Program-made: the position numbers and the translations under genes
NCBI GenBank assembly: GCA_050734155.1
Contig: JBOHUD010000064.1
Coordinates: 138,181-202,180, forward strand
Direction: 5' to 3'
From: Candidatus Dormibacteria bacterium
GTDB lineage: Bacteria > Chloroflexota > Dormibacteria > Aeolococcales > Aeolococcaceae
DNA: 64,000 bases
The notes under the pieces: generated by a model
Told to the model about the DNA's origin: nothing
The model's input: only the letters and a program-made list of their open reading frames with translations
Databases searched by the model: none
In this document: positions 9,403 through 64,000 of the stretch, in pieces
Layout of the letters: each line of letters opens with the position of its first letter
Numbering within the stretch: the first letter of the stretch is position 1

Positions 9403-9460
9403 GCGCTGGTCAGTCTAGGCGGGGCAGACGGGCTCGCGGCCCACCGGCGGCGCCGCCCGA

Positions 9461-11179
9461 CTAGAAGTCGAGGTCGTCGTCCATCCCCATGCCACCCATG
9501 CCACCCATGCCACCCATGCCGCCCATGCCACCCATGCCGCCGCCCATGCCACCCATGCCGCCGCCGTGGGCGTGGCCGTGGCCGGCAGCAGCCTCATCGT
9601 CCTCGGGCTCGGGGGCGTCGGCGATGAGCGCCTCGGTGGTGAGCATCATGGCGGCGATCGAGGCCGCGTGGGAGAGCGCGCTGACCACCACCTTGGTGGG
9701 ATCGATGACGCCGCGCTGGACGAGGTTGGCGTAGTCGCCGGTGCGCGCGTCGAAACCCTCGTCACCGCTCGCCTGGGCCACGCGATTGGCCACGGTGGGG
9801 CCGTCGTGGCCGCCGTTCTGGGCGATGATCCGCAGCGGCTCCTGGAGTGCTCTGCGCACGATCCGCGCCCCGGTGGCGGCGTCGTCGTGGAGCTCGAGGT
9901 CGTCGATGGAGTCCACGGCGCGCAGGAGCGCGACCCCGCCCCCGGCCACGTAGCCGTCCTCGAGCGCGGCCCGGACGGCGGCGAGGGCGTCCTCGACGCG
10001 GGACTTGCGCTCCTTCATCTCCACCTCGGTGGCGGCGCCGACCTTGACCACGGCGATGCCGCCGACCAGCCGCGCCAGCCGCTCCTGGAGCTTCTCGCGA
10101 TCCCATTCCGACTCGGTCTCCTCGATCTCGCGGCGGAGATCCTCGGCGCGCGCGTCGACGGCGCCGCGGTCGCCACCGCCCCTGAGGATGGTTGTGTCCT
10201 CTTTGGTGATCACGATCCGCTCGGCGCTGCCCAGCTGGTCGAGACGCACCCCATCGAGGCGCAGCCCAACCTTCTCGCTGATCAGCGTGGCACCGGTCAG
10301 CACCGCGATGTCGGCAAGGATGGCGGTGCGCCGATCGCCGAATGCGGGCGCCTTGACCGCGACCGCGGTGAAGGAGCCGCGGAGGCGGTTGACGACCAGG
10401 GTTGCCAGCGCCTCCGCCTGCACATCCTCGGCGACGATGAGCAGCGGCCGGCTCGAGCGCACCACCAGCTCGAGGGCGGGAAGCAGGTCGGCGACGGCGG
10501 TGATCTTGGCATCGGTGACCAGAACCGCCGCCTTCTCCAGGATCGCCTCCATCGTCTTCTGGTCGGTCACCAGGTAGGGCGACACGTAGCCGCGATCGAA
10601 CTGCATGCCCTCGACGACCTCGACCTCGGTCTCGATGCCGTTGCCCTCCTCGACGGTCACCACGCCCTCGCGTCCGACGCGCTCGAAGGCCTCGGCGATC
10701 ATGGTCCCGATGACCTCGTCACCCGAGCTGATGGTGGCGACGCGCTCCAGGTCCTCATTGCCGTCGACGGGGTGCGACCGGCTGCGCACCGCGGCCACCA
10801 CCGCCTCGGTGGCGGCGAGCATGCCGCGGCGCAGCTCGTTCGGGGACGCCCCGGCGGCGAGGTTGCGCAGCCCCTCGTTGATGAGCGCGCGGCCGAGGAC
10901 CGCGGCGGTGGTGGTGCCATCGCCGGCGATGTCGTTGGTCTTGACAGCGATCTCCTTGAGAAGCTGCGCACCCATGTTCTCGAAGTGGTCCTTGAACTCC
11001 AGGTCGCGGGCGATGGTGACGCCGTCGTTGCTGATCAGCGGAGACCCGAAGCGCTTGTCGATGACCACGTTGCGCCCTCTCGGGCCGAGCGTCACCGACA
11101 CCGCGTCGGCGACAGAGTCGACGCCGCGATGGAGCGCCTGGCGCGCCTCATTGCTGAAACGAAGTTGCTTGGCAGTCAT
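9461..11179 (-). CDS. groEL: Chaperonin GroEL (Cpn60) with C-terminal GGM repeat tail
   Basis: 572 aa. AAVLGRALINEGL, GDGTTTA, and C-terminus ...GGGMGGMGGGMGGMGGMGGMGGMGGMGMDDDLDF. Confidence 0.97.
   Translation of the reverse strand: MTAKQLRFSNEARQALHRGVDSVADAVSVTLGPRGRNVVIDKRFGSPLISNDGVTIARDLEFKDHFENMGAQLLKEIAVKTNDIAGDGTTTAAVLGRALINEGLRNLAAGASPNELRRGMLAATEAVVAAVRSRSHPVDGNEDLERVATISSGDEVIGTMIAEAFERVGREGVVTVEEGNGIETEVEVVEGMQFDRGYVSPYLVTDQKTMEAILEKAAVLVTDAKITAVADLLPALELVVRSSRPLLIVAEDVQAEALATLVVNRLRGSFTAVAVKAPAFGDRRTAILADIAVLTGATLISEKVGLRLDGVRLDQLGSAERIVITKEDTTILRGGGDRGAVDARAEDLRREIEETESEWDREKLQERLARLVGGIAVVKVGAATEVEMKERKSRVEDALAAVRAALEDGYVAGGGVALLRAVDSIDDLELHDDAATGARIVRRALQEPLRIIAQNGGHDGPTVANRVAQASGDEGFDARTGDYANLVQRGVIDPTKVVVSALSHAASIAAMMLTTEALIADAPEPEDDEAAAGHGHAHGGGMGGMGGGMGGMGGMGGMGGMGGMGMDDDLDF
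9484..9565. repeat. 9-bp tandem coding repeat (catgccacc-like) encoding the GroEL GGM tail
   Basis: Direct reading: ccatgccacccatgccacccatgccacccatgccgcccatgcc...; lies inside the groEL 3' end, not a CRISPR. Confidence 0.9.
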
Positions 11180-47910: not shown

Positions 47911-49149
47911 TCACCCCACCGTCACCGGCCGGGTGAAGTTGCCGTGCTCCACACCGGGCAGCAGCCGGCCCAGGCGACGGTGCGCGGCGCGCAGGCCGAT
48001 GCCGCGGCCGAGGGGAGGCAGGACATCGATCAGCCAGTCGTGATCGACGTTGAGCGAGCGCCACTGCACCTGGTCGACGTGCATCGCCAGGCAGGCGCGC
48101 ACGGTGGCGTCGATCTCCACGGCGACGTCGGTGATCCCCGGGAAGGTGAGCAGGTTGAGGCAGACCTGGCCACCGCGGTCGTGCACCAGGCGACCGCAGC
48201 GGAGCACATCGTCGAGGTCGTACCCCAGCGGTCGGTAGTAGGCGCGGAAGACGGCGTCGTTGAAGGAGATGGCGCTGATGCGCACGCTGTTGAGGCCGGC
48301 CTCGACGAGGCCCTCGAGGACGTGCGGCTTGCTCCCATTGGTGTTGATGTGGATGGTCGCGGTGGGGTGCAGGGCGCGGATCCTCCGGGTCGCCTCCACC
48401 AGGGCGTCGTCGCGAGTGAGGGCCTCGCCCTCGCAGCCCTGCCCGAAGGAGACGATGGCGGCCTCGTCGCCGCCCAGGTGCCAGTCGGCCAGGGCCACCA
48501 GCTCGTCGGCGGTGGGCGCGAAGCGCATCCGCTCCTGGGGGGCCGGGGCCTCGCCGTCGCTCTGCAGGGAGATGCAGCCCAGGCAGTCGGCATTGCACGC
48601 CGGGGAGGCGGGCAGCGCCCCCTCGTAGCGGCGGTGGAATGTGTTCTGGGCCGTGTAGCAGCGATTCTCCAGGGCACAGCGGGCGAGGTGGTCGACCAGG
48701 CGGTTGCCGGGAAGCGCCGCTTGCGCCGTCGCCACCGCGGCGGGGAGGTCGGCCCGGCCGTAGCGGGCCGGCTGCCACCAGTCGAAGCTGTCGGTGCGCA
48801 GGGCCGCGCACATGAGCTCCCCGTCGTGCTCGGCCACGGCGGTGTATCCGTAGAGGGGCAGGCGTCGCGCCCCAGGGAGGCGGCTGGTCGCCGGGAGCAG
48901 GGTGCGCAGGTGACCCACGGGGAGGACGGCGGCCACCGCCAGCCACTCCCCCACCACCTCGACGGCGCCGCCGTCGCTGTCCACCGCCAGCGGACGGCGG
49001 CCCGGCAGGTGGGTGAGCGTGGCCTCCTCCGGGAGCGGCACCAGCTCGGCGGCGGTCAGCTCCACCAGCTCGCGACCGCTCCGCCCGGCCGCGCGATAGC
49101 CCTCGAGAACCTCGATGGAGCCGTCGGGACCTCCGGCGATGACCTGCAT
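47911..49149 (-). CDS. Radical SAM superfamily protein with ~180-aa N-terminal domain and atypical CX3CXGC cluster
   Basis: 412 aa from ATG 49149. ...GALPASPACNADCLGCISLQ (CX3CX2C with Gly instead of the usual aromatic before Cys3), downstream SFGQGCEGEA (GGE-like) and HINTNGS. Confidence 0.6.
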   Translation of the reverse strand: MQVIAGGPDGSIEVLEGYRAAGRSGRELVELTAAELVPLPEEATLTHLPGRRPLAVDSDGGAVEVVGEWLAVAAVLPVGHLRTLLPATSRLPGARRLPLYGYTAVAEHDGELMCAALRTDSFDWWQPARYGRADLPAAVATAQAALPGNRLVDHLARCALENRCYTAQNTFHRRYEGALPASPACNADCLGCISLQSDGEAPAPQERMRFAPTADELVALADWHLGGDEAAIVSFGQGCEGEALTRDDALVEATRRIRALHPTATIHINTNGSKPHVLEGLVEAGLNSVRISAISFNDAVFRAYYRPLGYDLDDVLRCGRLVHDRGGQVCLNLLTFPGITDVAVEIDATVRACLAMHVDQVQWRSLNVDHDWLIDVLPPLGRGIGLRAAHRRLGRLLPGVEHGNFTRPVTVG

Positions 49150-49207
49150 CCCGGGATTATGGAGTGGCTTCGATCTGGGACCGACCGCCGGACGCTCCAG
49201 GCCGAGC

Positions 49208-50590
49208 TCAGGGGCCAGAGGGTTGCTCCGCACTGCGCCTGGCGGCGGCGTTGGCGAGGTTGCCCGCCACCACGACGATGGTGTGGTCGAGGTCGAAGGA
49301 TGCTCCGCCACCGCCGGCCCTGGGGGTGGCCGGTGCAACCGCTGCGCCGGCGACCCGGGCGGTGTCGCCCAGCCAGCCCATGCCCCGCGCCGCGACCTGC
49401 GCGACGCCGGTCGCCCGCACCGCGATGGGACGGCCGTCGCCGGTCTCGAAGCGGACCTCACCACGGCGGCGCGCCGCCCTGTCGGGGCCGGCGACGATCC
49501 GGAAGGCGCCCTCGTGGTGGCGATGGTGGTGGAAGCGGCAGAGGGAGAGGAGATTGTCGAGGTCGGTGCGACCCTGGTCGGGCCAGGCGACGAGGTGGTG
49601 CCCCTCGGTGTCGGCCGCGGGGACCCCGCAGCCCGGGTAGCGGCAGCCCCGGTCGCGGAGCTGGAGGAGGCGGCGCTGCCGCCCCGACACCACCCGCCGG
49701 GCCCGGCCCACATCCAGGGGAACGCCACCGCGCTCGAGCACCGCCAACACGCTGGCGTCGCAGCCGATCCGCCGGGCCGCGGCCACCGCGATCGCCGGCC
49801 CATCCTCGAGGTGACAGCGGCCCCCGGTGTCGGCACCGGTGAGGGTGTCGAGGTCGACGTGGACCACCAGCTCGGCGGGCGCGCTCCCCGGCGGCGCCGC
49901 CGCGCTGGCGGCGAGCCAGCCCCGGCAGATGCGCACCAGCGCGTCGGCGCGGCGCGCTCCCTGGGGGTGGTCGGCCTCGCCCTCGGCACAGGGGTCCTCG
50001 CCGGCCAGCTCGGCGACCGCCGCCGCCGGGCGGAGAACCGCGGACTCGATGGCGTTGAGCACCAGCCGGCCCTCCTCCGGGGGCAGGGTGGCGGAGAGGG
50101 CGAGCAGGCCGTCCTGGTCGAGCCACCAGCAGACCAGGCGGCGCCGGGCCCGCTGCAGAGCGGCCCGCTCGGGGTCGTCGACCGCGATGGAGCGGCGGTA
50201 CTCACGGCAGATCCGCGCCAGCTGCGCTCCCGAGGCCTCGCGGGCCAGCTGCAGCCAGATCGCCTCATCGTCGGCGGTGGCCACCAGGGTGAGCAGGCGC
50301 ACCTTGTCGAAGGACAGCGAGCCTGCCGCGAAGGCCTCGTGGAGGAGCGGCAGTCGGCGCAGCGCCCGGCCGGCGCGGAGGATCTCGCGCGCGTTCCACA
50401 GATCGATGCCGGTGTTGATGGTCAGCCAGTGGGCGCCGCTCCGCATGCCCATGCCCGACCAGCGCTCCGCCTCATCGAACTGCGCTGCCAGGTCGACGAA
50501 GCGCGCGGTGGCGGCGTGGAGATGCCCTGCCAGGGCAACGATCTGGTCCTCCGGCTGCGCCTTCACCACGCCTCTGATTGTACCAAACAT
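49208..50590 (-). CDS. DUF222 + HNH endonuclease domain protein (REP13E12-like)
   Basis: ~460 aa from ATG 50590. C-terminal HNH: GCRYPGCGVPAADTEGHHLVAWPDQGRTDLDNLLSLCRFHHHRHHEG. Confidence 0.8.
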   Translation of the reverse strand: MFGTIRGVVKAQPEDQIVALAGHLHAATARFVDLAAQFDEAERWSGMGMRSGAHWLTINTGIDLWNAREILRAGRALRRLPLLHEAFAAGSLSFDKVRLLTLVATADDEAIWLQLAREASGAQLARICREYRRSIAVDDPERAALQRARRRLVCWWLDQDGLLALSATLPPEEGRLVLNAIESAVLRPAAAVAELAGEDPCAEGEADHPQGARRADALVRICRGWLAASAAAPPGSAPAELVVHVDLDTLTGADTGGRCHLEDGPAIAVAAARRIGCDASVLAVLERGGVPLDVGRARRVVSGRQRRLLQLRDRGCRYPGCGVPAADTEGHHLVAWPDQGRTDLDNLLSLCRFHHHRHHEGAFRIVAGPDRAARRRGEVRFETGDGRPIAVRATGVAQVAARGMGWLGDTARVAGAAVAPATPRAGGGGASFDLDHTIVVVAGNLANAAARRSAEQPSGP

Positions 50591-51069
50591 ATGTTCGTGC
50601 GGCCATCGGTTTGGCGGACAGTGCGCGCCCAATGAGGCGGGCGTGGACTGGGGATGGCGGGGTCGGTGGGGCCGCTCGTCCACCCTCACGGCAGCACCGC
50701 CATCCAGCAGACGACGCCGACGTCGTCCTCGGTGATCGGGTCGACGAGCGGCGGCGCCTCCACCGGGCGAAGGCCAAAGCCGGCCACGACGCCGACGATC
50801 CGGGTCGCCGCATCATCTGGCGTCGTCCGGCCCGCAGCGACGTCGGATGCGATCTCCGACAGGGCGCGCCGCACCGTGCTGCTGCGCTCGTATGGAAGGG
50901 GTGGAGCGGGGCGCGAAGTGCCGGGCGCCTCATGGTGGTCACACAGACGAGTATATCCACTGTTCTGTGTGATCGCACTGACCCAACCTGGGGCGCTGAG
51001 CACGGACACCCCACCGGGCGACCAATCGGCCCGGCCCACGCCCCACGGCGCCACGCTGTCCCGCAGGTG

Positions 51070-52047
51070 TCAGGCGGCGCGCAGCTCCGCCGGGATCGCG
51101 GTGACGGTGCGCAGCTCACCGTCTCGAACCACGCGCAGCACCGCGAAGCGATCGAACACCTCGGCCATCATCAGCCGCTGCACATCGCCCGCCGTCTGGA
51201 CGGGGTGGGAGTCGAGCTCGACGATGACGTCGCCCGGCCTGAGCCCGGCGCCGTCGGCCGCGCTGCCGGGCACCACCTCGACGACCCGCAGCCCGCGGCC
51301 GCGCCCCAGCTCGGCGCTGAGCCGGGCCGAGAGCGGCTGGGAACGGCCCGCCACCCCGAGGAAGCCGCGCCGCACCCTGCCGTGCTGCATCAGGGCGGCG
51401 ATGATCGCCAGCGTGGTGGCGTTGATGGGCACGGCCAGCCCCAGCCCGTAGCCGGCCAGGGCGGTGTTGATGCCCACCACCCGGGCGCTCCCATCCGCCA
51501 GCGCCCCGCCGGAGTTGCCGGGATTGAGCGCGGCGTCGGTCTGGATCACGTTTTCGACCACCCGCATGTGGCCCCCGGAATGGGTGGGCAGCGACCGGCC
51601 CAGCGCGCTGATCACCCCCGCGGTCACCGACCCCGCCAGGCCGTGGGGGTTGCCGATGGCGACGACCAGCTCGCCGACCCGCAGCAGGTCGGCGTCGCCG
51701 AGCGCGGCCGGGGCCAGGTCGCCGGCGCCGGCCCGGACCACGGCGATGTCGGAGAGGACATCCTCGCCGACCACGTCGAAGGGCAGCTGGCGCCCGTCGG
51801 AGGCGTGCGCCGACCCGCCCACCCCGCCGTGGACCACGTGCGCGGAGGTGACCAGGTAGCCGTCCCCGGTCAGCACCCAGGCGGAGCCGCTCCCCGCCGG
51901 TCCGCGGCCACCCCGGGTGCGCTGTTCCACGACCAGGCTGAGCACCGACGGCGCCAGCTTCGCGGCCACGCCGCTGACCACCCGCGAGTAGGCGTCCAGG
52001 GGGGCCTCGCCCTCCCCATCCGCCGCCGGCGAACGCTCCGCAACCAT
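51070..52047 (-). CDS. Trypsin-like serine protease with PDZ domain (HtrA/DegP S1C family), catalytically intact
   Basis: 325 aa. TSAHVV (His), DIAVV (Asp), NPGNSGGAL (Ser), C-terminal PDZ (GFLGV...VPGSAADGAGLRPGDVIVELD). Confidence 0.88.
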   Translation of the reverse strand: MVAERSPAADGEGEAPLDAYSRVVSGVAAKLAPSVLSLVVEQRTRGGRGPAGSGSAWVLTGDGYLVTSAHVVHGGVGGSAHASDGRQLPFDVVGEDVLSDIAVVRAGAGDLAPAALGDADLLRVGELVVAIGNPHGLAGSVTAGVISALGRSLPTHSGGHMRVVENVIQTDAALNPGNSGGALADGSARVVGINTALAGYGLGLAVPINATTLAIIAALMQHGRVRRGFLGVAGRSQPLSARLSAELGRGRGLRVVEVVPGSAADGAGLRPGDVIVELDSHPVQTAGDVQRLMMAEVFDRFAVLRVVRDGELRTVTAIPAELRAA

Positions 52048-52048
52048 G

Positions 52049-52591
52049 TCAGCCGCCGCTCGGCCCCTGGCTGCGAACCTTCTCCACGGCGGTCAGCGCC
52101 TCGCGGAGGCTCTTGATCCATTCGTCCTGGTGGCGGCCGACGAGGCGGACGCACCAGGCCAGCGCCTCGCTGCGGCTGCGCGCCACCCCGGCATCGATGA
52201 GGGTGTCGAGGACCCCCCGATCACCCAGGCGGAGCCGGGTCATGACCGGCACTCCCAGGGTGGTGAAGTGCTCCTCGACCTCGCCGCAGCGCGCTCCCCA
52301 GGACACCTTGCGACCGAAGAGCCGCTCGGCCTCGGAGGCGACGCCGATGCGGCGCTCGCGGGTCTCCTCGCGGAACCTGGAGATGCGCGCGGCGCGGGCG
52401 GCGGTGCGCGCCGCCTCGTTGGCGTCGCCCGCCAGCTCGGGTTCGGGAATGGTCCCCACGATGAGGATCTCATCGCGGTCGCCGCTGATGGTCGGGGGTC
52501 CGGCGAAGAGGTCGTCGGGGATGCGCCCCGCGAACCAACCGGAGAGCTCGTCGTCGCTGTAGGTGGCCTGGGCCTCACGTTGGGTTTTCAT
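52049..52591 (-). CDS. Conserved hypothetical protein
   Basis: 180-aa ORF immediately upstream of (and nearly overlapping) the htrA-like gene; no recognised motif. Confidence 0.4.
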   Translation of the reverse strand: MKTQREAQATYSDDELSGWFAGRIPDDLFAGPPTISGDRDEILIVGTIPEPELAGDANEAARTAARAARISRFREETRERRIGVASEAERLFGRKVSWGARCGEVEEHFTTLGVPVMTRLRLGDRGVLDTLIDAGVARSRSEALAWCVRLVGRHQDEWIKSLREALTAVEKVRSQGPSGG

Positions 52592-52657: not shown

Positions 52658-53668
52658 CTATCGGACCCGCCGCGCTCCCTCCGGGGGCAGGGCCATGTGG
52701 TGCTTGGTGAGGATCTCCCGGACGGTGCCGCTCTGGGCGCGCATCACCAGGCTGTGGGTCTCCGCCCACCAGTCGTGGTACTGCACACCGCGAAGGATCC
52801 CGCCCCCGCTGATGCCGGTGGCAGCGATGCTCACCTGCCGCCCGGGCACCAGCTGCTCCATGCTGATCGACTCCTCGGGGTCGAATCCGGCAGCGCGCAC
52901 CGCGGCCGCCTCCTCGTCGTGGCGGACCCAGGGCCGGCACTTCAGCTCCCCGCCCAGGCAGCGCATCGCGCACGCCGCCACGATGGCCTCCTGGGTGCCA
53001 CCCGATCCGATCATCACGTCGATGCCGCTTCCCGGCCAGGCGGCCATCATGGCCGCGCCCACGTCACCATCCGAGATGAGCGCCACCCGCGCCCCCAGGG
53101 AACGCACCCGCTCGAGCAGGGCCTGGTGGCGAGGACGGTCGAGCATGACCACGGTGAGGTCCTGGACCTGCACCTCCATGGCGAAGGCGATGCGGCGCAG
53201 GTTGTTCTCGGGTGTGTCGGCGATGTCCACCGCCCCCTTGGCGGCGGGTCCAACGGCGATCTTGTGCATGTACGCCACCGGGGGCGGCGAGAGGATCCCA
53301 CCGGGCTCGGCCGCGGCGGCGATGCTCAGCGCCTGGCTGAGGCCGCGCGCCACCAGGCTGACACCATCCACCGGGACGATGGCCAGGTCGATGCGCTCGC
53401 GACCGACGCCGATGCGCCGTCCCGGGGCGAGGTTGCTGTTGCCGCCCTCGGGGCCGATCACCACCCTCCCGTCGAAGGACATCCCGATGAGGGCCTCCTC
53501 CATCACGCCCTGGCCGGCGTCGCGGGCGCCCGACTTGTCGCCGCGACCCAGCCACCGTCCCACCGAGAGCGCCGCAGCCTCGGTGGCGCGGAGCAGCTCG
53601 AGGCCGCGGTGGCGATCACGGCCGACCCGCGCCGGCGGTGCGCGGTCAGGCACGGCGGTGTTGGCCAT
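52658..53668 (-). CDS. glpX: Fructose-1,6-bisphosphatase class II (GlpX)
   Basis: 336 aa. GlpX-like blocks including DLTVVMLDRPRHQALLERVRSLGARVALISDGDVGAAM and GSGGTQEAIVAACAMRCLGGE. Confidence 0.88.
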   Translation of the reverse strand: MANTAVPDRAPPARVGRDRHRGLELLRATEAAALSVGRWLGRGDKSGARDAGQGVMEEALIGMSFDGRVVIGPEGGNSNLAPGRRIGVGRERIDLAIVPVDGVSLVARGLSQALSIAAAAEPGGILSPPPVAYMHKIAVGPAAKGAVDIADTPENNLRRIAFAMEVQVQDLTVVMLDRPRHQALLERVRSLGARVALISDGDVGAAMMAAWPGSGIDVMIGSGGTQEAIVAACAMRCLGGELKCRPWVRHDEEAAAVRAAGFDPEESISMEQLVPGRQVSIAATGISGGGILRGVQYHDWWAETHSLVMRAQSGTVREILTKHHMALPPEGARRVR

Positions 53669-53698: not shown

Positions 53699-55441
<1,743 letters not shown>

Positions 55442-56071
55442 TCAGGCCGCGCCCCGGGGCTCCAGGACGACCACGCGGGAGTCGTCCGAGCCCGTGATCG
55501 CACCGTTGAGGTTGAGCTTGGGAAGCGCCTGGTGGGCGTCCTCGGCCAGCCCCATCTCCCGGGTGAAGGTGTCGACCGGCTCGTACTCGCCGCTGCCGGG
55601 CGACGCCGGGGAGCGATAGCGAACGGGGATCACGATGGGTGGGCTGAGGGCGTTGACCAGCTTGGCCGCCGCCGGCGCGGCCAGGGCGTCGCCGCCGCCG
55701 ACCGGAGCGACGAGGACGTCGATGTGGCCGAGCGCATCGATCTCCTCCTCGGTGAGCTGGCGGTCGAGCCGGCCCACGCTGGCCACGCGGACGTCGTCGA
55801 TCTCCACGCGCATGATGGTGCGGCCGTTGCCGAGGTCGACGCCGCGCACGCTGACGCCGCGAACCTCGAACTCACCCGCCCCACTGACCTCCTGGCTCCG
55901 CCCATCCCGGGGGCGGAGCCGGTCGGCATCGGTGCGGCCCTCGGTGCGCACCACCAGGTCCGGGGTGGCCTTGCCCAGGCCGGGCAGCTGGCCGTCCTGG
56001 GGGTCGATCACCACCTGGGTGTCGCGGCCGCGGAGGCGCACACAGGACAGGCCGAGGTAGGTGATCTCCAT
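55442..56071 (-). CDS. MBL-fold metal-dependent hydrolase (UPF0173/Lactamase_B_3-like)
   Basis: 209 aa. MEITYLGLSCVRLRG... pattern of the UPF0173 family; no HxHxDH, consistent with this subfamily. Confidence 0.6.
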   Translation of the reverse strand: MEITYLGLSCVRLRGRDTQVVIDPQDGQLPGLGKATPDLVVRTEGRTDADRLRPRDGRSQEVSGAGEFEVRGVSVRGVDLGNGRTIMRVEIDDVRVASVGRLDRQLTEEEIDALGHIDVLVAPVGGGDALAAPAAAKLVNALSPPIVIPVRYRSPASPGSGEYEPVDTFTREMGLAEDAHQALPKLNLNGAITGSDDSRVVVLEPRGAA

Positions 56072-56122
56072 CTCGCGGCATGGTAGCCCCGGCGCGGAGA
56101 TCGCCGCTCCCGGACGCCGCCC

Positions 56123-57181
56123 TCAGGCGCCGGCCACAGTCAGCGTGACCGAGCGCGCCGCCCCGGTGGCACCGATGACCGCGAGGACCGCCCGGTCGCC
56201 CACCAGCAGGCCGAAGGCACCGGGCTGGAGGGCGCCCGCGGAGAGCAGGGTGGTGCCGTTGACCGAGGTGACCACGTCGCCGGGCTGGAGCAGCCCGACC
56301 GCAGCACCGGTGGGGCTGACCGAGCGGATCAGCGCGCCCTGGGACACCCCGGTGGCCGCGGACACCGCGGGGTCCACCAGGAAGCTGGTCACCCCGAAGG
56401 AGGCCGCCCCGGCCGGTGCGCCGCGCTGCACGCCGCTCACCAGCCGGGCGGCGTCCCGGCCCGAGGCCGCGGTCAGCCCCGACGCCGCGGGCACGGTGGT
56501 GACCACCCCGGTGACCGCCCCGGTGCCGTCGACCAGCGGTGCGCCGTCAGCCTGCGGGGCGGAGGTGGCGTCGACTGTGAGCAGGTCGGTGAGCTCCGCC
56601 TCGCCGTCGTTGGCGGTCATGGCCACGGCGTCGACCACCCCGCTGCGCGTCGTGGTTGTGCCCAGGGCCGGCCGGAACACCGCCACCGCCAGGTCGCCGA
56701 TGCGCGGGTCCTGGGCGGCGAAGCGCAGGGGTGTGAGTCCTGCCGCCCCGGCCGCGCGCAGCACCACGATGCCGTCGGCCACGTCGCTGGCCGCGATGGT
56801 GGCGTTGTAGCCGCGACCGTCAGCGGTGGCCACGCGCAGGCGGGTGGCGCCGCGCACGGCGTGGGCCGAGGTGACGATCAGGCCATCGCCGCTGACCGCG
56901 AACCCCTGGGTCAGCCCGGTCGCCGAGCCGGTGGCCAGCGCCCCCGGGGTGACCGCCGCGGTGCTGACCGTGACCAGCGAGGGCAGGACGGAGGTGGCGA
57001 TGTCGCCGACCGACACCGCCCCGCCGCCGGTCTTGGTCTGGGTGATGACCCGCTCCACCGGGCCGAAGTGGCTGTACACGCCCCAGGCGCCCAGCCCCCC
57101 GCCGACCACGCCGACGCAGGCGCTGAGCACCACGGCGGCGAGCAGGCGTGTTCCCGAGGCGCGAGCGCCCGCCGCCTTCAC
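56123..57181 (-). CDS. HtrA-like trypsin/PDZ protein with N-terminal TM anchor; catalytic Ser replaced by Asp (probable pseudoprotease)
   Basis: 352 aa. His context TSAHAV retained. The block aligning to NPGNSGGPLV reads SAPQADGAPLV (GNSGG->QADGA). PDZ-like C-terminus. Start overlaps the downstream MBL gene by 4 nt. Confidence 0.7.
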   Translation of the reverse strand: MKAAGARASGTRLLAAVVLSACVGVVGGGLGAWGVYSHFGPVERVITQTKTGGGAVSVGDIATSVLPSLVTVSTAAVTPGALATGSATGLTQGFAVSGDGLIVTSAHAVRGATRLRVATADGRGYNATIAASDVADGIVVLRAAGAAGLTPLRFAAQDPRIGDLAVAVFRPALGTTTTRSGVVDAVAMTANDGEAELTDLLTVDATSAPQADGAPLVDGTGAVTGVVTTVPAASGLTAASGRDAARLVSGVQRGAPAGAASFGVTSFLVDPAVSAATGVSQGALIRSVSPTGAAVGLLQPGDVVTSVNGTTLLSAGALQPGAFGLLVGDRAVLAVIGATGAARSVTLTVAGA

Positions 57182-58119
57182 TCCGCGACGGCGGGGGCTC
57201 GCGTCGACGCGTGCGTCGAGAGGTAGCGGACGATGCCGGCGGCGTTGCTGTGCACGCCGTTCAGCACCTCGAACTTCTCGCGCAGGGCGTCGGAGAGCCC
57301 CGCTGGAGCACCGGCGAACGCGTCGGCGAGGGCGGCCGCGACGTCGTCGACGCCGGCCTCCTCGCTCTCTCGCATGGTGCGCTCGGCGACCTCCACCCAG
57401 CGGTGCAGCAGCGCCTCGGCGTCGGCGAGCGTCTCCTCCGGCCCCTCGACCGGGCCGTAATGGGTGAGCACGAGGAGCTCGGGCCGCAGGGCGGCGAAGC
57501 GGCGCAGGCTGGCGGTCGCCTGTTCCAGGTCGAAGTCGGGCGGCGGCGTGGCCGGACGGAGGATGCCGATGTCGGGGAGCCTGACCCCCACGGCGTCCCC
57601 GACCAGGAGGGTGCCGGTGCGCTCGTCGAGAACGGCGTGGTGGTGCTTGGCGTGACCCGGGGAGTCGATCAGGGTGAGCAGGTGGCCGTCGCCGAGGTCG
57701 ACGCGATGGCCGTCGGCCGCGGCCACCAGGCGATGCTCGGGGACGGGCAGCATCCTGCCGTAGAGGGAGTCGAGGAGCGGCCCGTACACCCGGGCGGCGC
57801 TGTCGATGAGCCGGCTGGGATCGAGCAGGTGCCGGGCCCCCCGCTCGTGCACCACCACAGTGGCGTTGGGAAACGCGGCGGCCAGGTCGCCGACGCCGCC
57901 GGCGTGGTCCAGGTGGATGTGGGTGACGACGATCCAGCGCAGGTCGTCGGGGCCCAGGCCCGCCTCGCGGAGCGCGTCCGTGACCGCCGCCACGCTGCTC
58001 TGCGAGCCGGTCTCGACCAGGGCCGGCTGGGCGCCGTCGAAGAGGAACCCCGCGGTCATCCCATCCATGCCGCCCAGGAGGGTGTCGATCTGGCGGATGC
58101 CGGGAGCGATCAGGTCCAT
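57178..58119 (-). CDS. MBL-fold metallo-hydrolase (HxHxDH type)
   Basis: 313 aa from ATG 58119. VVTHIHLDHAGG, additional His/Asp ligands (DSPGHAKHH). The ORF-track ORF is extended upstream over UPF0182 out of frame. Confidence 0.8.
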   Translation of the reverse strand: MDLIAPGIRQIDTLLGGMDGMTAGFLFDGAQPALVETGSQSSVAAVTDALREAGLGPDDLRWIVVTHIHLDHAGGVGDLAAAFPNATVVVHERGARHLLDPSRLIDSAARVYGPLLDSLYGRMLPVPEHRLVAAADGHRVDLGDGHLLTLIDSPGHAKHHHAVLDERTGTLLVGDAVGVRLPDIGILRPATPPPDFDLEQATASLRRFAALRPELLVLTHYGPVEGPEETLADAEALLHRWVEVAERTMRESEEAGVDDVAAALADAFAGAPAGLSDALREKFEVLNGVHSNAAGIVRYLSTHASTRAPAVAE

Positions 58120-61100
58120 CAGGGGCTCGGGGTGGGCGTCGCGGCCGGGCTGGCTCTCGGTGAGGCGGAGGGCGAGGCCGGTGCGGTCTGCTGGAGCAGT
58201 GCTGCCAGCTGGGCGCTGTCGGCCTTGACCGCGTCCTCCTCCTTGCCGAAGGTGGTGAAGTCGCCCTTCTGCAGGGCCGCCTGCGCCGCCTGCTGGTGGT
58301 TGAGCAGGTCGTTGAGCAGCGTCAGCTCCTGGGAGGTGAAGTTGGCGGACCCGGGCGGGGGGTTGGTGGTCGTCGACGGAGACGTGGTCGGCGGCCCGCT
58401 CGGGTTGGCCAGACCGGGGATGGGCTGGGTGGTGTTGAGCAGGGTCTGCAGCGCCTGCGCGAACGACGACCCCTGGGCGACGGCGTTCTGGGTGCCCACG
58501 ATGACCTCGTGCAGCTGGGGGAACGCCGTGCCCCCGGCTCCGCCCGAGGCGAGCACGTAGAGCGGACGCACGTACAGGAAGGAGTCGTTGTTGAAGGGCA
58601 GCACGATGACGTTGCCGAGGATCACCGAGGAGCCGTGCTGAGCGAGCAGGCTGACCTCGGGGCTGATGATCGGGTCGGTGTTGATGTTGTTGTCGAACTG
58701 CAGCGGACCGAGGACGTTGACGGAGTTGTTGAGCGGGACCGCCACCAGCTTGGGGTGGTTGGTGCTGGTGTAGTCCGACTCCGCCGCCAGCCAAGCCGTC
58801 ATGTTGTTGGCGCCTCCCCCGCTCGAGCTCGCCGGCGAGAACGACTGGAAGAGGATGAAGCTGGGCTGGCTGTCCCCCGGCAGGGTCACCTCGATGTAGT
58901 ACGGCTGGGTGTCCTGCTGCTGGCCGTTGAGCTGCTGCTGGGCGATGCGGTAGCGGTCGCTGCCGTTGAAGAACACCGAGGCGTTGCTGACATGGACATT
59001 GGCGTACACCTGGGCCTGCGCGGAGAAGAGGTCCTCGGGATAGCGCAGGTGACTGCGCAGCGAGGCCGGCATGGTGCTGAGCGGCTGCATGAGACCGGGG
59101 TAGATGGCGTTCCACGCCGCGGTGATCGGCTCGTTGAGGTCGACCGCGTAGAGGGTGATGGCGCAGGTGCGGGCGTCGATCACCGCCTTGACGGCGTTGC
59201 GCATGTAGGACACCCCGTTCTGCACCGCCGACTCGGGGAAGCGATCGGTCTGCACATAGGTGTCGGCGATGTAGTCCAGGTGACCGGTGGCGTCGTCGAC
59301 GACCACGTACGGGTCAGAGTCGACATGGAGGAAGGGGGCGATGCTGGTGATGCGATCCTGGATGCGGCGGTGCACCAGCACCCTGCTGTTGGCGGTCAGC
59401 GAGTTGTTGAGGAAGAGGTCGAGGGTGCCGAACGAGTCCACCGAGACGGCCAGCCTGTCGAAGATGTTGCCCACCGCGATGCCCTGCATCTCATTGCCGG
59501 CGTGGAAGGTGGCGTCGCCGCCGCCGGCGGGATAATCGAACTCGTTCTGCAGGGTTCCGGTCACCACCGGTTGGGTGGTGGAGAGCCCGCAGTAGATGCG
59601 TGGGTCACCCGCCTTGCCATCGAAGCTGAGCCCGGGCGGCGCGTCCGGCGACACCTGCTTCATGGGCTGCTGCCCCACCAGCACCTGCGGCTTGCCCTCC
59701 GAGGCGACGGCGTTGACCGAGACCGCGGTGACCCCGTAGCCGTGCGTGTAGTTGAGGGCGCTGTTGATGAAGGAGGCGTTGGGGATGTCGTTCTCGGCGA
59801 TCTCGCGCGGACCGAGCATCACCTCGGTGTCGCCGGAGCCGTCGGCGGCGGGGTAGCGATCGACGGTGATGGTCGGGTACGTCTGGTAGCTGCGGCTGCG
59901 GTCGATCTGGGCGAACGTGTCGGGGAGCTGGGTGGTGTCCTGGATGCGCACGTTGCGCAGCGTCCCCGGGTCGGCGGCGAGATCGGACAGGGTGGGCGCC
60001 GCCACGCTGCCGAAATTGCGGACCTCGACGTCGGAGGGCTGCAGTGCCCAGGCGTATCGACTGGTGGCCAGGTAGTCGTTGATCGGCGGTGTCTGGGCCA
60101 CCTGGGCGTTGGGGTTGACCGACGCGCCCTGGTAGATGAGCGCGGGGACCCCCTGCACCACCCCGGCGAGGACCAGCCAGCCCACCAGCGTGCCCGCGAA
60201 CACAGCCGCGCTGGAGCCGGCTCCGCGATTGCGGCGCAGCAGCACCAGCGCCACGGTGACCACCGCCAGCGCCAGCGCCACCCACTGGAGCACGCCCAGG
60301 ACCGGCCGGGTGACGTTGCGCTGGGTGGCGTCGAGGCCGACGAAGTTGTCGTGCTGCGCGGTGGCCAGGTGGTAGACGCCGAAATGTGCGCCCAGGGCTG
60401 CCATCACGAACACCCCGGCGAGCGCGATGCCGGCGTGGGTGACCGCGGCGCTGAAGCCGTCCTCGAAGCGCCTCCCCTCGGGAGGCTTCACCGGCAGGGT
60501 CACCTCCGCCGGCGCGTTGGCCAGGGAGAACGAGAAGGCCGCCAGCCCGATCGCGCCGATCAGCCCGATGAGCACGACCGCCCAGAGCAACCCCTGGAAG
60601 GCATCGAGGACGGGAAGGGTGAAGACGAAGAACGAGTAGTCCTGGTGGAAGACCGGGTCCACCGCCCCGAAGTGCTGACCGTGGAGCCAGAGCAGGACGT
60701 CCTGCCACCCCCCGGCCAGGACCGCCCCGCCTCCGATGGCGGCGATCACCGCCACGGCGATGCCGGCCCAGAGCGCGATGCGCCCGCCGCGCGTGTCGAG
60801 ATGGCGCGCCGCCCTCACCCACCCGACGACGCTGAGGCCGACGCCGCCGCCGGTGATCGCCGCTCCGACGAGGAACAGCACCACCTGGGCCAGGAATGGC
60901 GTCCAGAAGACATTGGTGTGGTTGAGGCTGGCGTAGTACAGGTAGCTGGCGCGCAGCCCGAGGAGCCAGCGGCCGAGCACCACCAGCAGCACGATCGCCA
61001 CCGCCACGATGGCCAGCACCCGCCGGCCGCGATGCCGCTCCGGTGGGCCGCCCGAGCGCACCACGCGCGGACCGCGCCGCCGCCGGAGGATCTCCTCGGG

Positions 61101-61121
61101 ATCGAAGCCGAATGCGCTCAC
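58119..61121 (-). CDS. UPF0182-family large membrane protein (~1000 aa)
   Basis: N-terminal basic cytoplasmic stretch (RRRRGPR), seven hydrophobic helices (YLYYASLNHTNVFWTPFLAQVV...), very large extracytoplasmic domain, Ala/Pro/Ser-rich C-terminus; matches the actinobacterial UPF0182 architecture. Confidence 0.8.
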   Translation of the reverse strand: MSAFGFDPEEILRRRRGPRVVRSGGPPERHRGRRVLAIVAVAIVLLVVLGRWLLGLRASYLYYASLNHTNVFWTPFLAQVVLFLVGAAITGGGVGLSVVGWVRAARHLDTRGGRIALWAGIAVAVIAAIGGGAVLAGGWQDVLLWLHGQHFGAVDPVFHQDYSFFVFTLPVLDAFQGLLWAVVLIGLIGAIGLAAFSFSLANAPAEVTLPVKPPEGRRFEDGFSAAVTHAGIALAGVFVMAALGAHFGVYHLATAQHDNFVGLDATQRNVTRPVLGVLQWVALALAVVTVALVLLRRNRGAGSSAAVFAGTLVGWLVLAGVVQGVPALIYQGASVNPNAQVAQTPPINDYLATSRYAWALQPSDVEVRNFGSVAAPTLSDLAADPGTLRNVRIQDTTQLPDTFAQIDRSRSYQTYPTITVDRYPAADGSGDTEVMLGPREIAENDIPNASFINSALNYTHGYGVTAVSVNAVASEGKPQVLVGQQPMKQVSPDAPPGLSFDGKAGDPRIYCGLSTTQPVVTGTLQNEFDYPAGGGDATFHAGNEMQGIAVGNIFDRLAVSVDSFGTLDLFLNNSLTANSRVLVHRRIQDRITSIAPFLHVDSDPYVVVDDATGHLDYIADTYVQTDRFPESAVQNGVSYMRNAVKAVIDARTCAITLYAVDLNEPITAAWNAIYPGLMQPLSTMPASLRSHLRYPEDLFSAQAQVYANVHVSNASVFFNGSDRYRIAQQQLNGQQQDTQPYYIEVTLPGDSQPSFILFQSFSPASSSGGGANNMTAWLAAESDYTSTNHPKLVAVPLNNSVNVLGPLQFDNNINTDPIISPEVSLLAQHGSSVILGNVIVLPFNNDSFLYVRPLYVLASGGAGGTAFPQLHEVIVGTQNAVAQGSSFAQALQTLLNTTQPIPGLANPSGPPTTSPSTTTNPPPGSANFTSQELTLLNDLLNHQQAAQAALQKGDFTTFGKEEDAVKADSAQLAALLQQTAPASPSASPRASPAATPTPSP

Positions 61122-61173: not shown

Positions 61174-61494
61174 TCAGCGCCGTTGCAGGAGCAGCCGAAC
61201 GTCGAACGGGTCGCGGCGGCGGCGCACCCGGCGGGTGACCTCGGGACGCACCTGGATCATGTAGGGCTCCTGCTGGCGGAGCACCTCCTCGATGGCCTCG
61301 GCGATGACCATCCCCTCGCGAATGGTGGGCACGCGCTCGCTCAGGGCATCGACCATGGCGGCCGTCACCGTGGTGTGGTCGAGCTCGTGAGCCTGCTCGA
61401 GGATGGTGAGGCAATCGTCGAGACGGCGCAGGCGAACGCGCCGCTCCTCTCCCCCGCTGTCCAGCTGGACCATGACACGTGCAAGGTACTCCAT
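61174..61494 (-). CDS. Hypothetical small protein
   Basis: 106-aa ORF with Arg-rich C-terminus between UPF0182 and uvrA; no recognised motif. Confidence 0.35.
   Translation of the reverse strand: MEYLARVMVQLDSGGEERRVRLRRLDDCLTILEQAHELDHTTVTAAMVDALSERVPTIREGMVIAEAIEEVLRQQEPYMIQVRPEVTRRVRRRRDPFDVRLLLQRR

Positions 61495-61529: not shown

Positions 61530-64000
<2,471 letters not shown>

What the first reader, a model, noticed from the sequence alone, without database searches (positions are those of the whole stretch)
55442..61121. A catalytically degenerate HtrA-like PDZ protein sits between two MBL-fold hydrolases and a UPF0182 giant membrane protein
The 56123-57181 product has a TM anchor, a trypsin fold with the His context (TSAHAV) intact, and a PDZ-like C-terminus. 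The segment aligning to the catalytic GNSGGP reads QADGAP (Ser to Asp, oxyanion Gly/Asn lost). It is therefore probably a non-catalytic pseudoprotease.

Its start overlaps the stop of the MBL hydrolase (57178-57181). The MBL start in turn overlaps the UPF0182 stop (TGATG at 58119).

The order UPF0182 - MBL - pseudo-HtrA - MBL is tightly coupled. This suggests a membrane-associated module where a PDZ/trypsin-like scaffold partners with metallo-hydrolases and the uncharacterised UPF0182 protein. An intact HtrA paralogue (51070-52047) lies 4 kb away for comparison.
Basis: partly seen in the sequence, partly recalled or inferred. Interest (0 to 1): 0.65.

Follow-up and report, generated by a model that had tools for sequence, protein, structure and literature searches.

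The report
Dead HtrA-like protease in conserved operon
This gene encodes a membrane-anchored protein that keeps the shape of an HtrA quality-control protease but has lost its cutting residues. It is kept next to the same neighbours in nearly all sampled genomes of the uncultured soil bacteria Dormibacteria, so it very likely has a non-cutting job, perhaps with the poorly understood membrane protein UPF0182.

Summary
The 56123-57181 (-) product has an N-terminal transmembrane helix, an HtrA/DegP-type fold and one PDZ domain. In the catalytic triad columns it reads His107 / Gly137 / Asp212, so two of three residues are lost, not one.

It is not a decaying copy. It belongs to an orthologous family found almost only in Candidatus Dormibacteria (about 25 clusters at 50% identity; 355 hits in species genomes). 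No aligned member has the His-Asp-Ser triad. dN/dS is about 0.2.

The order small orphan - UPF0182 - MBL hydrolase - pseudo-HtrA - Lactamase_B_3 holds in nearly all 80 species loci. The MBL stop and pseudo-HtrA start overlap by 4 bp in 60 of 67.

- The downstream "MBL hydrolase" is itself a pseudoenzyme with no metal ligands.
- Both MBL proteins are cytoplasmic while the pseudo-HtrA domains lie outside the membrane, so a direct scaffold role is unlikely.
- The UPF0182/MBL overlap is specific to this lineage, and one lineage lacks UPF0182 in the block.

Best reading, inferred only: a non-catalytic, PDZ-bearing client-binding or regulatory partner in envelope and membrane protein quality control, probably with UPF0182. 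Three chromosomal actinomycete UPF0182 genes are preceded by an analogous TM-anchored PDZ-Lon protease, immediately in Nonomuraea and across a short gap or one gene in Nocardia and Tsukamurella. This is a new variant of a known kind, of moderate interest.

The parts
56123..57181 (-). Pseudo-HtrA (352 aa). N-in transmembrane helix at about residues 10-39, S1C/trypsin-like domain at about 58-250 with triad columns H107/G137/D212, and one PDZ domain at about 260-350.
   Evidence: Pfam Trypsin_2 1.9e-15 plus PDZ. NCBIfam degP_htrA_DO scores 84 bits against a cut-off of 416. Alignments to DegP and to the paralogue. AF2 pLDDT 85 and Foldseek hits to DegP/DegQ/DegS. Family-wide loss of the triad. dN/dS 0.17-0.30.
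57178..58119 (-). MBL-fold metallo-hydrolase (313 aa), cytoplasmic, with an intact HxHxDH motif and the other ligands. Translationally coupled to the pseudo-HtrA.
   Evidence: Pfam Lactamase_B 1.8e-25. Best PDB relatives are ST1585 and PqsE. THIHLDH, SPGHAKHH, GDAVG and THYG are conserved in 76 orthologues. The 4-bp ATGA/GTGA overlap with the next gene is present in 60 of 67 loci. No transmembrane segment.
55442..56071 (-). Pseudo-MBL (209 aa, Lactamase_B_3 fold), cytoplasmic, with all metal-binding His residues replaced.
   Evidence: Pfam PF13483 5.5e-22. Alignment to TM0207 (1vjn): the HxHxDH motif reads E-G-R-T-D-A, and the other His residues are L, R and R. The same loss occurs in all 81 orthologues, consensus RTEGATDPAKL. 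dN/dS 0.12-0.27.
58119..61121 (-). UPF0182 membrane protein (1000 aa): seven N-terminal hydrophobic segments followed by a 670-residue C-terminal domain predicted to lie outside the membrane.
   Evidence: Pfam PF03699 8.5e-175. Hydropathy and charge distribution. Directly upstream of the MBL gene in almost all loci.
61174..61494 (-). Small orphan protein, 106 aa as an ORF. Homologues are mostly 96-100 aa, so the real start is probably Met8 at 61473. It has an Arg-rich conserved C-terminus and is the first gene of the conserved block.
   Evidence: No Pfam or NCBIfam hit. 227 homologues, nearly all unnamed or 'hypothetical protein' and Dormibacteria-type where a source gives a name. Present upstream of UPF0182 in the loci. 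It stays with MBL - pseudo-HtrA - pseudo-MBL in L086, where UPF0182 is absent.
51070..52047 (-). Intact HtrA paralogue (325 aa, H-D-S triad, PDZ), used here as a comparator. It is not part of the block and has no membrane anchor.
   Evidence: Pfam Trypsin_2 9.6e-26 and PDZ_2 1e-11. degP_htrA_DO 227 bits. GNSGG, SDIAV and TSAHV motifs. No N-terminal hydrophobic segment.

Best explanation
The 56123-57181 gene encodes a membrane-anchored, extracytoplasmic HtrA-family pseudoprotease. It has the DegP-like fold plus one PDZ domain but no catalytic Asp and no Ser nucleophile.

It is the Dormibacteria-wide orthologue of a dedicated family kept under purifying selection. It is expressed from a conserved block (small orphan - UPF0182 - active MBL hydrolase - pseudo-HtrA - pseudo-MBL) and is translationally coupled to the MBL gene.

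Proposed mechanism (inferred):
- The PDZ domain has an intact (F/L)-G-(V/A) carboxylate-binding loop. Together with the dead protease cleft it binds C-termini or unfolded stretches of exported or membrane proteins without cutting them.
- The unusually conserved transmembrane helix (G24xxxG28xxxA32, W33, Y36, G40-P41) docks the protein onto a membrane partner. The most likely partner is UPF0182, whose 670-residue domain lies on the same side of the membrane.
- The pair would then act in envelope and membrane protein quality control as a client recognition, holding or regulatory module.

The two MBL-fold proteins are cytoplasmic. They are more likely co-regulated, perhaps as an active/inactive pair, than direct ligands of the trypsin and PDZ domains.

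Shown: homology, fold, loss of the triad, family conservation, selection and synteny. Inferred: topology, partner and function.
For: Fold and homology.

Loss of the triad in the window protein and across the family:
- H/G/D in the window.
- All 118 homologues whose Ser column is covered lack Ser there (two more are truncated).
- In a profile search of 1.84 billion representatives, about 25 family representatives (195-525 bits) all lack Ser and all have Gly in the Asp column. The generic HtrAs just below them are H-D-S.
- 208 aligned sequences, none with the triad.

Functional constraint:
- dN/dS 0.17-0.30, similar to UPF0182 and the MBL proteins.
- PDZ loop G263 is kept in 206 of 208 and the GDVV..NG motif is conserved.
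- The transmembrane and juxtamembrane segment is the best-conserved part: 0.79 mean top-residue frequency, against 0.65 for the protease domain and 0.62 for the PDZ domain.

Synteny:
- The block is present in nearly all 80 species loci.
- It persists when the flanks change: L088 has insertions on both sides and L087 has a different downstream context.
- The 4-bp MBL/pseudo-HtrA overlap is present in 60 of 67 loci.

Same-side topology of UPF0182 and the pseudo-HtrA.

Independent parallel: in three chromosomal actinomycete loci, a PDZ + Lon_C (S16) protease gene lies just upstream of UPF0182 on the same strand. It is immediately adjacent in Nonomuraea and separated by a short gap or one gene in Nocardia and Tsukamurella; an N-terminal TM anchor was seen in the two sequences translated.

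Literature: UPF0182 is phenotypically linked to FtsH and YccA and to membrane-protein homeostasis in Actinobacteria, with a predicted periplasmic dome (bioRxiv 10.1101/2025.11.14.688347). MamO is a precedent for a retained, non-catalytic HtrA-like protein (PMC4794232).
Against: - There is no direct evidence of any physical interaction, and co-folding could not be run.
- The conserved order also includes unrelated housekeeping genes (UvrA, PyrG, GlpX), so part of the synteny is simply inherited.
- UPF0182 is missing from the block in L086 and is separated by 1.7 kb in L072.
- UPF0182 copies in Proteobacteria, Haloarchaea, Clostridia and on actinobacterial plasmids have no PDZ or MBL neighbour.
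- The pseudo-HtrA is the fastest-evolving gene of the block, at 42-50% identity where the MBL is about 75%.
- The function of the tightly coupled MBL is unexplained by this model.
- Topology rests on hydropathy and the positive-inside rule only.
Confidence: 0.55

Rival explanations
1. Inherited synteny only. The pseudo-HtrA is a real non-catalytic protein, for example a general extracytoplasmic holdase or a regulator of active HtrA proteases encoded elsewhere. It has no specific functional tie to UPF0182 or the MBL proteins, and the block is conserved because Dormibacteria genomes are syntenic here.
For: The conserved order extends to UvrA, PyrG and GlpX. UPF0182 is absent from the block in L086 and separated in L072. 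UPF0182 has no such neighbours in five other loci. MamO shows that a dead HtrA can act by activating an active HtrA.
Against: The block survives rearrangement of both flanks (L087, L088). The 4-bp overlap with the MBL gene is kept in 60 of 67 species at 42-85% protein identity. There is an actinomycete parallel of UPF0182 with a PDZ protease. The only active HtrA seen nearby has no membrane anchor, so it is not an obvious hetero-oligomer partner.
Confidence: 0.25
2. A repurposed ligand- or metal-binding site. The former active site has become a binding site for a cation or small ligand. The site reads H107-H136-D212 in most family members and H107-D136-D212 in the window clade. This would resemble MamO, where an HtrA-like domain binds transition metals.
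For: The acidic residue at the Ser column is conserved: D or E in about 92% of 208 sequences. His107 pairs with Asp212 in 156 of 156 cases. When His is lost it is replaced mostly by R, K or Q, and then residue 212 is Glu. This is as expected if a cationic side chain substitutes for a bound cation or for the His-Asp pair. The majority state is H-H-G-D in 110 of 208. MamO is the precedent. The neighbouring genes are of the metal-dependent MBL fold.
Against: The covariation may simply reflect a buried His-Asp or Arg-Glu pair that stabilises a dead cleft, and it is confounded by phylogeny. Residue 136 is one position off the catalytic Asp and may point away. Several members have I, V, T, A or G at position 212. 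MamO's metal site lies elsewhere on the fold, and the MamO model scores only 38 bits against a cut-off of 800.
Confidence: 0.12
3. It is still an enzyme. The protein hydrolyses peptides or another substrate by a non-canonical mechanism, for example a His/Asp pair activating water.
For: His107 and an acidic residue at 212 co-occur in 75% of the family. The cleft-forming loops keep their length, with the DGAPL motif invariant at G213 and P215.
Against: The His is replaced by R, Q, A, K, E, N, T, D or S in many orthologues under the same selection regime. The catalytic Asp is always Gly. The oxyanion-hole GN(S)GG is lost. No trypsin-fold peptidase with an Asp or Glu nucleophile is known to me (own knowledge).
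Confidence: 0.05

Closest known systems
HtrA/DegP/DegS family (MEROPS S1C), especially the single-PDZ, N-terminally anchored HtrAs of monoderm bacteria such as M. tuberculosis PepD/HtrA
   Same: The same architecture (TM anchor, trypsin-like domain, one PDZ), the same fold (Foldseek E about 1e-19 to 1e-21 to DegP, DegS, Rv0983 and Rv1223) and a conserved PDZ carboxylate-binding loop.
   Different: The triad is H/G/D instead of H/D/S, and the oxyanion loop is QADGAP instead of GNSGGP. It scores far below the family cut-offs (84 against 416 bits). It forms its own clade confined to Dormibacteria.
MamO / LimO, the HtrA-like pseudoproteases of magnetotactic bacteria (PMC4794232)
   Same: A retained, catalytically dead HtrA-family domain with a non-catalytic role, evolved alongside active paralogues.
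   Different: There is no TauE transporter domain and no magnetosome island. The lesion differs (Thr nucleophile in MamO, Asp/Glu plus loss of the Asp here). The lineages are unrelated: the MamO model scores 38 bits against a cut-off of 800. The di-His metal site of MamO was not identified here.
Actinobacterial pair UPF0182 + PDZ/Lon_C (S16) protease. The Rv3193c/Rv3194c type is named from memory. Tested here on Nocardia, Nonomuraea and Tsukamurella.
   Same: UPF0182 lies next to a gene for a protein of about 350-365 aa with a PDZ and a serine-protease-type domain; an N-terminal TM anchor is seen in the two sequences translated. UPF0182 is linked to FtsH/YccA membrane-protein homeostasis.
   Different: The protease domains are not homologous (S16 Lon-like against S1C trypsin-like). 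The actinobacterial one keeps the GPSAG motif containing its Ser and is reported as a serine protease. The gene lies upstream rather than downstream, and there are no MBL genes.
TM0207 (PDB 1vjn) and the UPF0173/Lactamase_B_3 metal-dependent hydrolases, for the 209-aa neighbour
   Same: The same MBL subfamily and fold (Pfam 5.5e-22; phmmer 1.5e-12 to 1vjn).
   Different: Every metal-ligand His is replaced in the Dormibacteria family.

Membership tests
HtrA/DegP serine endopeptidases (S1C) | Trypsin-like (chymotrypsin) fold of the protease domain | tested here: met
   Pfam Trypsin_2 1.9e-15. The AF2 model (pLDDT 85) matches DegP, DegQ, DegS and Mtb HtrA.
HtrA/DegP serine endopeptidases (S1C) | At least one C-terminal PDZ domain | tested here: met
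   Pfam PDZ scores 23.9 bits against a cut-off of 23.2. Orthologues hit PDZ_2 and PDZ_6. The structural alignment spans PDZ1. The (F/L)-G-(V/A) loop is conserved.
HtrA/DegP serine endopeptidases (S1C) | His-Asp-Ser catalytic triad and GNSGG oxyanion loop | tested here: not met
   H107 / G137 / D212, with QADGAP in place of GNSGGP. None of 208 family sequences has the triad.
HtrA/DegP serine endopeptidases (S1C) | Score above the curated family cut-off (NCBIfam TIGR02037 degP_htrA_DO) | tested here: not met
   84.3 bits against a cut-off of 416.2.
MamO-type pseudoprotease | Degenerate triad on an HtrA-like domain | tested here: met
MamO-type pseudoprotease | Fused TauE transporter domain, magnetosome-island context and a score above the NF040961 cut-off | tested here: not met
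   352 aa with a single TM helix. The neighbours are UPF0182, MBL genes and PyrG. 37.8 bits against a cut-off of 800.
MamO-type pseudoprotease | Surface di-His transition-metal site | not testable with these tools
Only the sequence pattern H107/H136/D212 was seen.
Metallo-beta-lactamase-fold hydrolases (209-aa protein, 55442-56071) | MBL fold (Lactamase_B_3) | tested here: met
   PF13483 5.5e-22. 1vjn 1.5e-12.
Metallo-beta-lactamase-fold hydrolases (209-aa protein, 55442-56071) | HxHxDH motif and distal His ligands | tested here: not met
   The motif reads E-G-R-T-D-A, and the other His residues are L, R and R, against TM0207. The loss occurs in all 81 orthologues.
Metallo-beta-lactamase-fold hydrolases (313-aa protein, 57178-58119) | MBL fold with HxHxDH and distal His/Asp ligands | tested here: met
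   PF00753 1.8e-25. THIHLDH, GHAKHH, GDA and THY are conserved in 76 orthologues.
UPF0182 | Full-length match to PF03699, with a multi-TM N-terminus and a large C-terminal domain | tested here: met
   8.5e-175 over 2-770 of 770 profile positions. Seven hydrophobic segments followed by 670 residues.
UPF0182 + PDZ-protease gene pair (actinomycete type) | UPF0182 adjacent to a TM-anchored PDZ protein with a serine-protease-type domain | tested here: inconclusive
   The analogy holds, although one gene (the MBL) intervenes and the protease folds are not homologous. A physical or functional link is untested.

The most novel reading that the evidence does not exclude
UPF0182 membrane proteins may work with a dedicated, membrane-anchored PDZ 'protease-fold' partner. 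That partner has been recruited independently from two unrelated serine-protease families: the active S16 Lon-like protein in actinomycetes and the dead S1C HtrA-like protein in Dormibacteria.

The Dormibacteria partner has been catalytically dead across the whole class. The conserved role of the partner would therefore be client recognition or gating for UPF0182, not proteolysis.

In addition, its former active site (His107-Asp212, or Arg/Lys107-Glu212) may have become a cation or ligand-sensing site. The operon's active-MBL and dead-MBL pair may form the cytoplasmic half of the same trans-membrane module.
Probability: 0.2. Interest if true: 0.7.

Novelty: new variant of a known kind. Interest (0 to 1): 0.45.

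Why it matters
UPF0182 is a large, widespread membrane protein that is conserved throughout Actinobacteria according to the preprint cited. Its function has long been unknown and has only recently been tied, by phenotype, to FtsH-dependent membrane-protein homeostasis.

A class-wide linkage of UPF0182 to a PDZ-bearing but catalytically dead HtrA, with a parallel active PDZ-Lon neighbour in actinomycetes, gives a concrete and testable partner hypothesis. It also suggests that binding rather than cleavage is the shared requirement.

The block is a compact natural example of two pseudoenzymes, a dead protease and a dead MBL, retained under purifying selection next to an active enzyme. That is useful for studying how pseudoenzymes are kept.

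Practically, current annotation as 'S1C family serine protease' and 'MBL fold metallo-hydrolase' over-states the enzymology of Dormibacteria genomes.

Tried and rejected
1. Lipoprotein instead of a TM anchor. The window has LSAC at residues 19-22, which fits a lipobox. Cys22 is present in only 124 of 208 sequences (Val in 66), and the conserved residues lie after it. Rejected.
2. A decaying pseudogene. Rejected: intact ORFs in about 80 species and dN/dS about 0.2.
3. Misalignment hiding a Ser. Rejected: BLASTP to the paralogue, phmmer to DegP, MAFFT and profile alignments all place D212 under the Ser.
4. Promoter and terminator scans to delimit the operon gave nothing above shuffled expectation.
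5. The small upstream protein (s106) has no family or structural lead, only Dormibacteria hypotheticals.
6. A general UPF0182-MBL or UPF0182-PDZ linkage outside Dormibacteria and actinomycete chromosomes was not found in Paraburkholderia, Haloferax, Peptoclostridium, Rhodococcus pRB98 or Miltoncostaea.
7. A literature search for Dormibacteraeota plus HtrA returned nothing.
8. The WalJ (MBL) - HtrC/YyxA adjacency in Bacillus was recalled from memory as a possible parallel. The NCBIfam hits of the 313-aa MBL gave no support, so it is not used as evidence.
9. Co-folding of the pseudo-HtrA with UPF0182 was not possible with the tools (single chain, length limit).

Full report
**What is in the window**

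The region is high-GC (about 72%) and every real gene lies on the minus strand:

| Gene | Coordinates | Evidence |
|---|---|---|
| UvrA | 61530-63989 | called in related loci |
| small orphan, s106 | 61174-61494 | no family hit |
| UPF0182 | 58119-61121 | PF03699, E=8.5e-175 |
| Lactamase_B protein, MBL313 | 57178-58119 | E=1.8e-25 |
| HtrA-like protein | 56123-57181 | Trypsin_2 1.9e-15, PDZ just above threshold |
| Lactamase_B_3 protein, MBL209 | 55442-56071 | 5.5e-22 |
| PyrG | 53699-55369 | CTP synthase domains in related loci |
| GlpX | 52658-53668 | PF03320, E=9.2e-101 |
| AbmR-like gene | 52049-52591 | NF058631, 1.9e-74 |
| intact HtrA | 51070-52047 | Trypsin_2 9.6e-26 |

The MBL313 ATG shares a base with the UPF0182 stop (TGATG). 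The HtrA-like GTG overlaps the MBL313 stop (GTGA). The exact protein is on record from a Candidatus Dormibacteria MAG.

**Is the HtrA-like protein catalytically degenerate?**

BLASTP against the intact paralogue and phmmer against E. coli DegP agree on three points:
- His107 is retained (TSAHAV).
- The catalytic Asp column is Gly137, with an Asp one residue earlier.
- The Ser nucleophile column is Asp212 (PQADGAP against PGNSGGA).

An AlphaFold2 model built on 50 homologues has mean pLDDT 85. It shows a helix at 10-39, a disordered linker, a beta-rich protease domain and a PDZ domain. Foldseek finds DegP, DegQ, DegS, MucD and the M. tuberculosis HtrAs over about 310 columns. The fold and architecture are those of HtrA, but the chemistry is not.

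**Is this a one-off decay or a family?**

It is a family.
- All 118 of the 120 best homologues (46-100% identity, named Dormibacteria wherever a name exists) whose Ser column is covered lack Ser there; two are truncated.
- A profile search of 1.84 billion cluster representatives gives about 25 family representatives (195-525 bits). All have Gly in the Asp column and D, E, I, V, T or A in the Ser column. Immediately below them come ordinary two-PDZ HtrAs with H-D-S.
- In 208 non-redundant sequences the commonest state is H107-H136-G137-D212 (110). The window clade is H-D-G-D (34).
- The His is replaced by R, Q, A, K and others in roughly a quarter of sequences.
- His107 always pairs with Asp212 (156 of 156). 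Non-His residues at 107 mostly pair with Glu212. This suggests the two side chains still touch, although phylogeny confounds the count.
- dN/dS against close relatives is 0.17-0.30. That is the highest in the block but clearly purifying.
- The PDZ carboxylate-binding loop (G263 in 206 of 208) and the GDVV..NG motif are conserved.
- The best-conserved part of the whole protein is the transmembrane and juxtamembrane segment (G24xxxG28xxxA32, W33, Y36, G40-P41). Its mean top-residue frequency is 0.79, against 0.65 for the protease domain and 0.62 for the PDZ domain. That is unusual for a passive anchor and points to helix-helix packing in the membrane.

**Neighbourhood**

A scan of one genome per species found 355 relatives. 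The best 80 are almost all Dormibacteria. A few records carry other names but have the identical block.

- tblastn with the window's proteins shows UvrA - s106 - UPF0182 - MBL313 - pseudo-HtrA - MBL209 - PyrG in nearly all of them.
- The pseudo-HtrA is the fastest-diverging member, at 42-50% identity where MBL313 is about 75%.
- The MBL313 stop and pseudo-HtrA start overlap by 4 bp (ATGA or GTGA) in 60 of 67 loci.
- The UPF0182/MBL313 overlap seen in the window is not general.
- Deep lineages with GC of 51-67% keep the block even when the flanks change. L088 has insertions on both sides. L087 has another context downstream and an unrelated gene inserted before MBL209. L084 has full synteny.
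- One lineage (L086) has s106 - MBL313 - pseudo-HtrA - MBL209 - PyrG with no UPF0182.
- The most stable core is therefore MBL313 -> pseudo-HtrA (-> MBL209), with s106 and UPF0182 usually attached.

**The two MBL proteins**

- MBL313 keeps HxHxDH and the distal ligands in all 76 orthologues. Its nearest solved relatives are ST1585 and PqsE.
- MBL209 aligns to TM0207 (1vjn), but every metal-ligand His is replaced and HxHxDH reads E-G-R-T-D-A. This holds in all 81 orthologues. It is a second pseudoenzyme under purifying selection.
- Neither MBL protein, nor s106, has a hydrophobic segment.

**Topology**

UPF0182 has a positively charged N-terminus and seven hydrophobic segments, then a 670-residue domain that should lie outside the membrane. 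The pseudo-HtrA has a positively charged 12-residue N-tail and one TM helix, then its globular domains, also outside. The MBL proteins are inside. A partnership with UPF0182 is topologically possible.

**UPF0182 elsewhere**

A 2026 preprint links UPF0182 to FtsH and YccA and to membrane-protein homeostasis across Actinobacteria. It predicts a tetrameric periplasmic dome.

I fetched UPF0182 loci from records in the plasmid collection. Some of these are evidently chromosomes by their size.
- In the three chromosomal actinomycete loci (Nocardia farcinica, Nonomuraea gerenzanensis, Tsukamurella tyrosinosolvens) a PDZ + Lon_C (S16) protease gene of about 350-365 aa lies just upstream on the same strand. 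It abuts UPF0182 in Nonomuraea; a short gap or one opposite-strand gene intervenes in the other two. The Nocardia and Nonomuraea products have an N-terminal TM anchor and an intact GPSAG motif.
- Five other copies have no such neighbour: Paraburkholderia, Haloferax, Peptoclostridium, Rhodococcus pRB98 and Miltoncostaea.
- So a membrane-anchored PDZ protein with a serine-protease fold recurs next to UPF0182 in two lineages. The protease domains are not homologous, and the Dormibacteria one is dead.

**Interpretation**

Identity as a conserved HtrA-family pseudoprotease is secure, at about 0.9. The functional model is inferred, at about 0.35: a non-catalytic client-binding or regulatory partner, docked by its TM helix, acting with UPF0182 in envelope and membrane protein quality control.

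The rivals are:
- independent function with merely inherited synteny;
- a MamO-like repurposing of the old active site for metal or ligand binding (PMC4794232);
- residual non-canonical catalysis, which is unlikely because the His is dispensable in many orthologues.

The role of the translationally coupled active MBL and of the pseudo-MBL remains unexplained. An active/inactive MBL pair is a speculation.

**Novelty and score**

Dead HtrA homologues are known, with MamO and LimO as examples, so the kind is not new. This particular family does not appear in the literature searched. It is distinguished by its class-wide conservation, its acidic replacement of the nucleophile, its conserved TM helix, and its fixed operon with UPF0182, an active MBL and a dead MBL. 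I rate it a new variant of a known kind, interest 0.45.

Noticed in passing
window 55442-56071 (-): The downstream Lactamase_B_3 protein has lost every metal-binding His. HxHxDH reads E-G-R-T-D-A, in the window and in all 81 orthologues. It is a second conserved pseudoenzyme in the same operon.
   Followed up: yes
window 61174-61494 (-): A small orphan protein restricted to Dormibacteria. Homologues are mostly 96-100 aa, so the start is probably Met8 at 61473. It has a highly conserved Arg-rich C-terminus (RRVRRRRDPFDVRLLLQRR) and no family hit. It is always the first gene of the block and stays with MBL - pseudo-HtrA - pseudo-MBL where UPF0182 is missing (L086).
   Followed up: partly
window 51070-52591 (-): The intact HtrA paralogue has no signal peptide or TM segment. 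It starts 1 nt after the stop of an AbmR-like ATP-binding transcription factor gene (NF058631, 1.9e-74). This looks like an apparently cytoplasmic HtrA coupled to a regulator. The pair is present in the window's subclade and in some other loci, and was not detected within the flanks held for most of the more distant loci.
   Followed up: partly
pseudo-HtrA residues 107 and 212 (window about 56861-56863 and 56546-56548): The His and Ser columns co-vary across the family. His pairs with Asp in 156 of 156 cases. Arg, Lys, Gln or Ala mostly pair with Glu. The number of independent switches was not determined.
   Followed up: partly
L092 3395-4486, L093 2669-3769, L097 1829-2872: In chromosomal actinomycete loci, UPF0182 is preceded by a PDZ + Lon_C (S16) protease gene (TM-anchored in the two sequences translated). 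In Nocardia and Tsukamurella a Zincin_2 metalloprotease gene also lies on the opposite strand.
   Followed up: partly
L021, L023, L029, L041, L050, L052, L071: MAG records titled Binatia, Acidiferrales, Saccharimonadales, Angelobacter or Actinomycetes carry the same Dormibacteria gene block, at identities similar to those of many of the Dormibacteria-named loci. These are probably taxonomic mislabels or mis-binned contigs.
   Followed up: no
L087 3913-4971: In one deep lineage an unrelated 352-aa gene with no Pfam hit is inserted between the pseudo-HtrA and the pseudo-MBL. L067 has a gap of about 1.8 kb at the same junction.
   Followed up: no
L069 about 8001-9702: In this locus the MBL209 match is on the opposite strand and the MBL313 reading frame runs on into the pseudo-HtrA region. 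This may be a local inversion or an assembly error.
   Followed up: no
window 49208-50689 (-): This ORF carries an HNH-like motif (CRYPGCG...HH...CRFHHHRHH) resembling the DUF222/HNH endonucleases common in actinobacteria. It overlaps a long ORF at 47911-50268 that carries a Cys-rich CxxxCxxC motif of the kind seen in radical-SAM enzymes (recalled, not tested). Gene calls here are uncertain.
   Followed up: no
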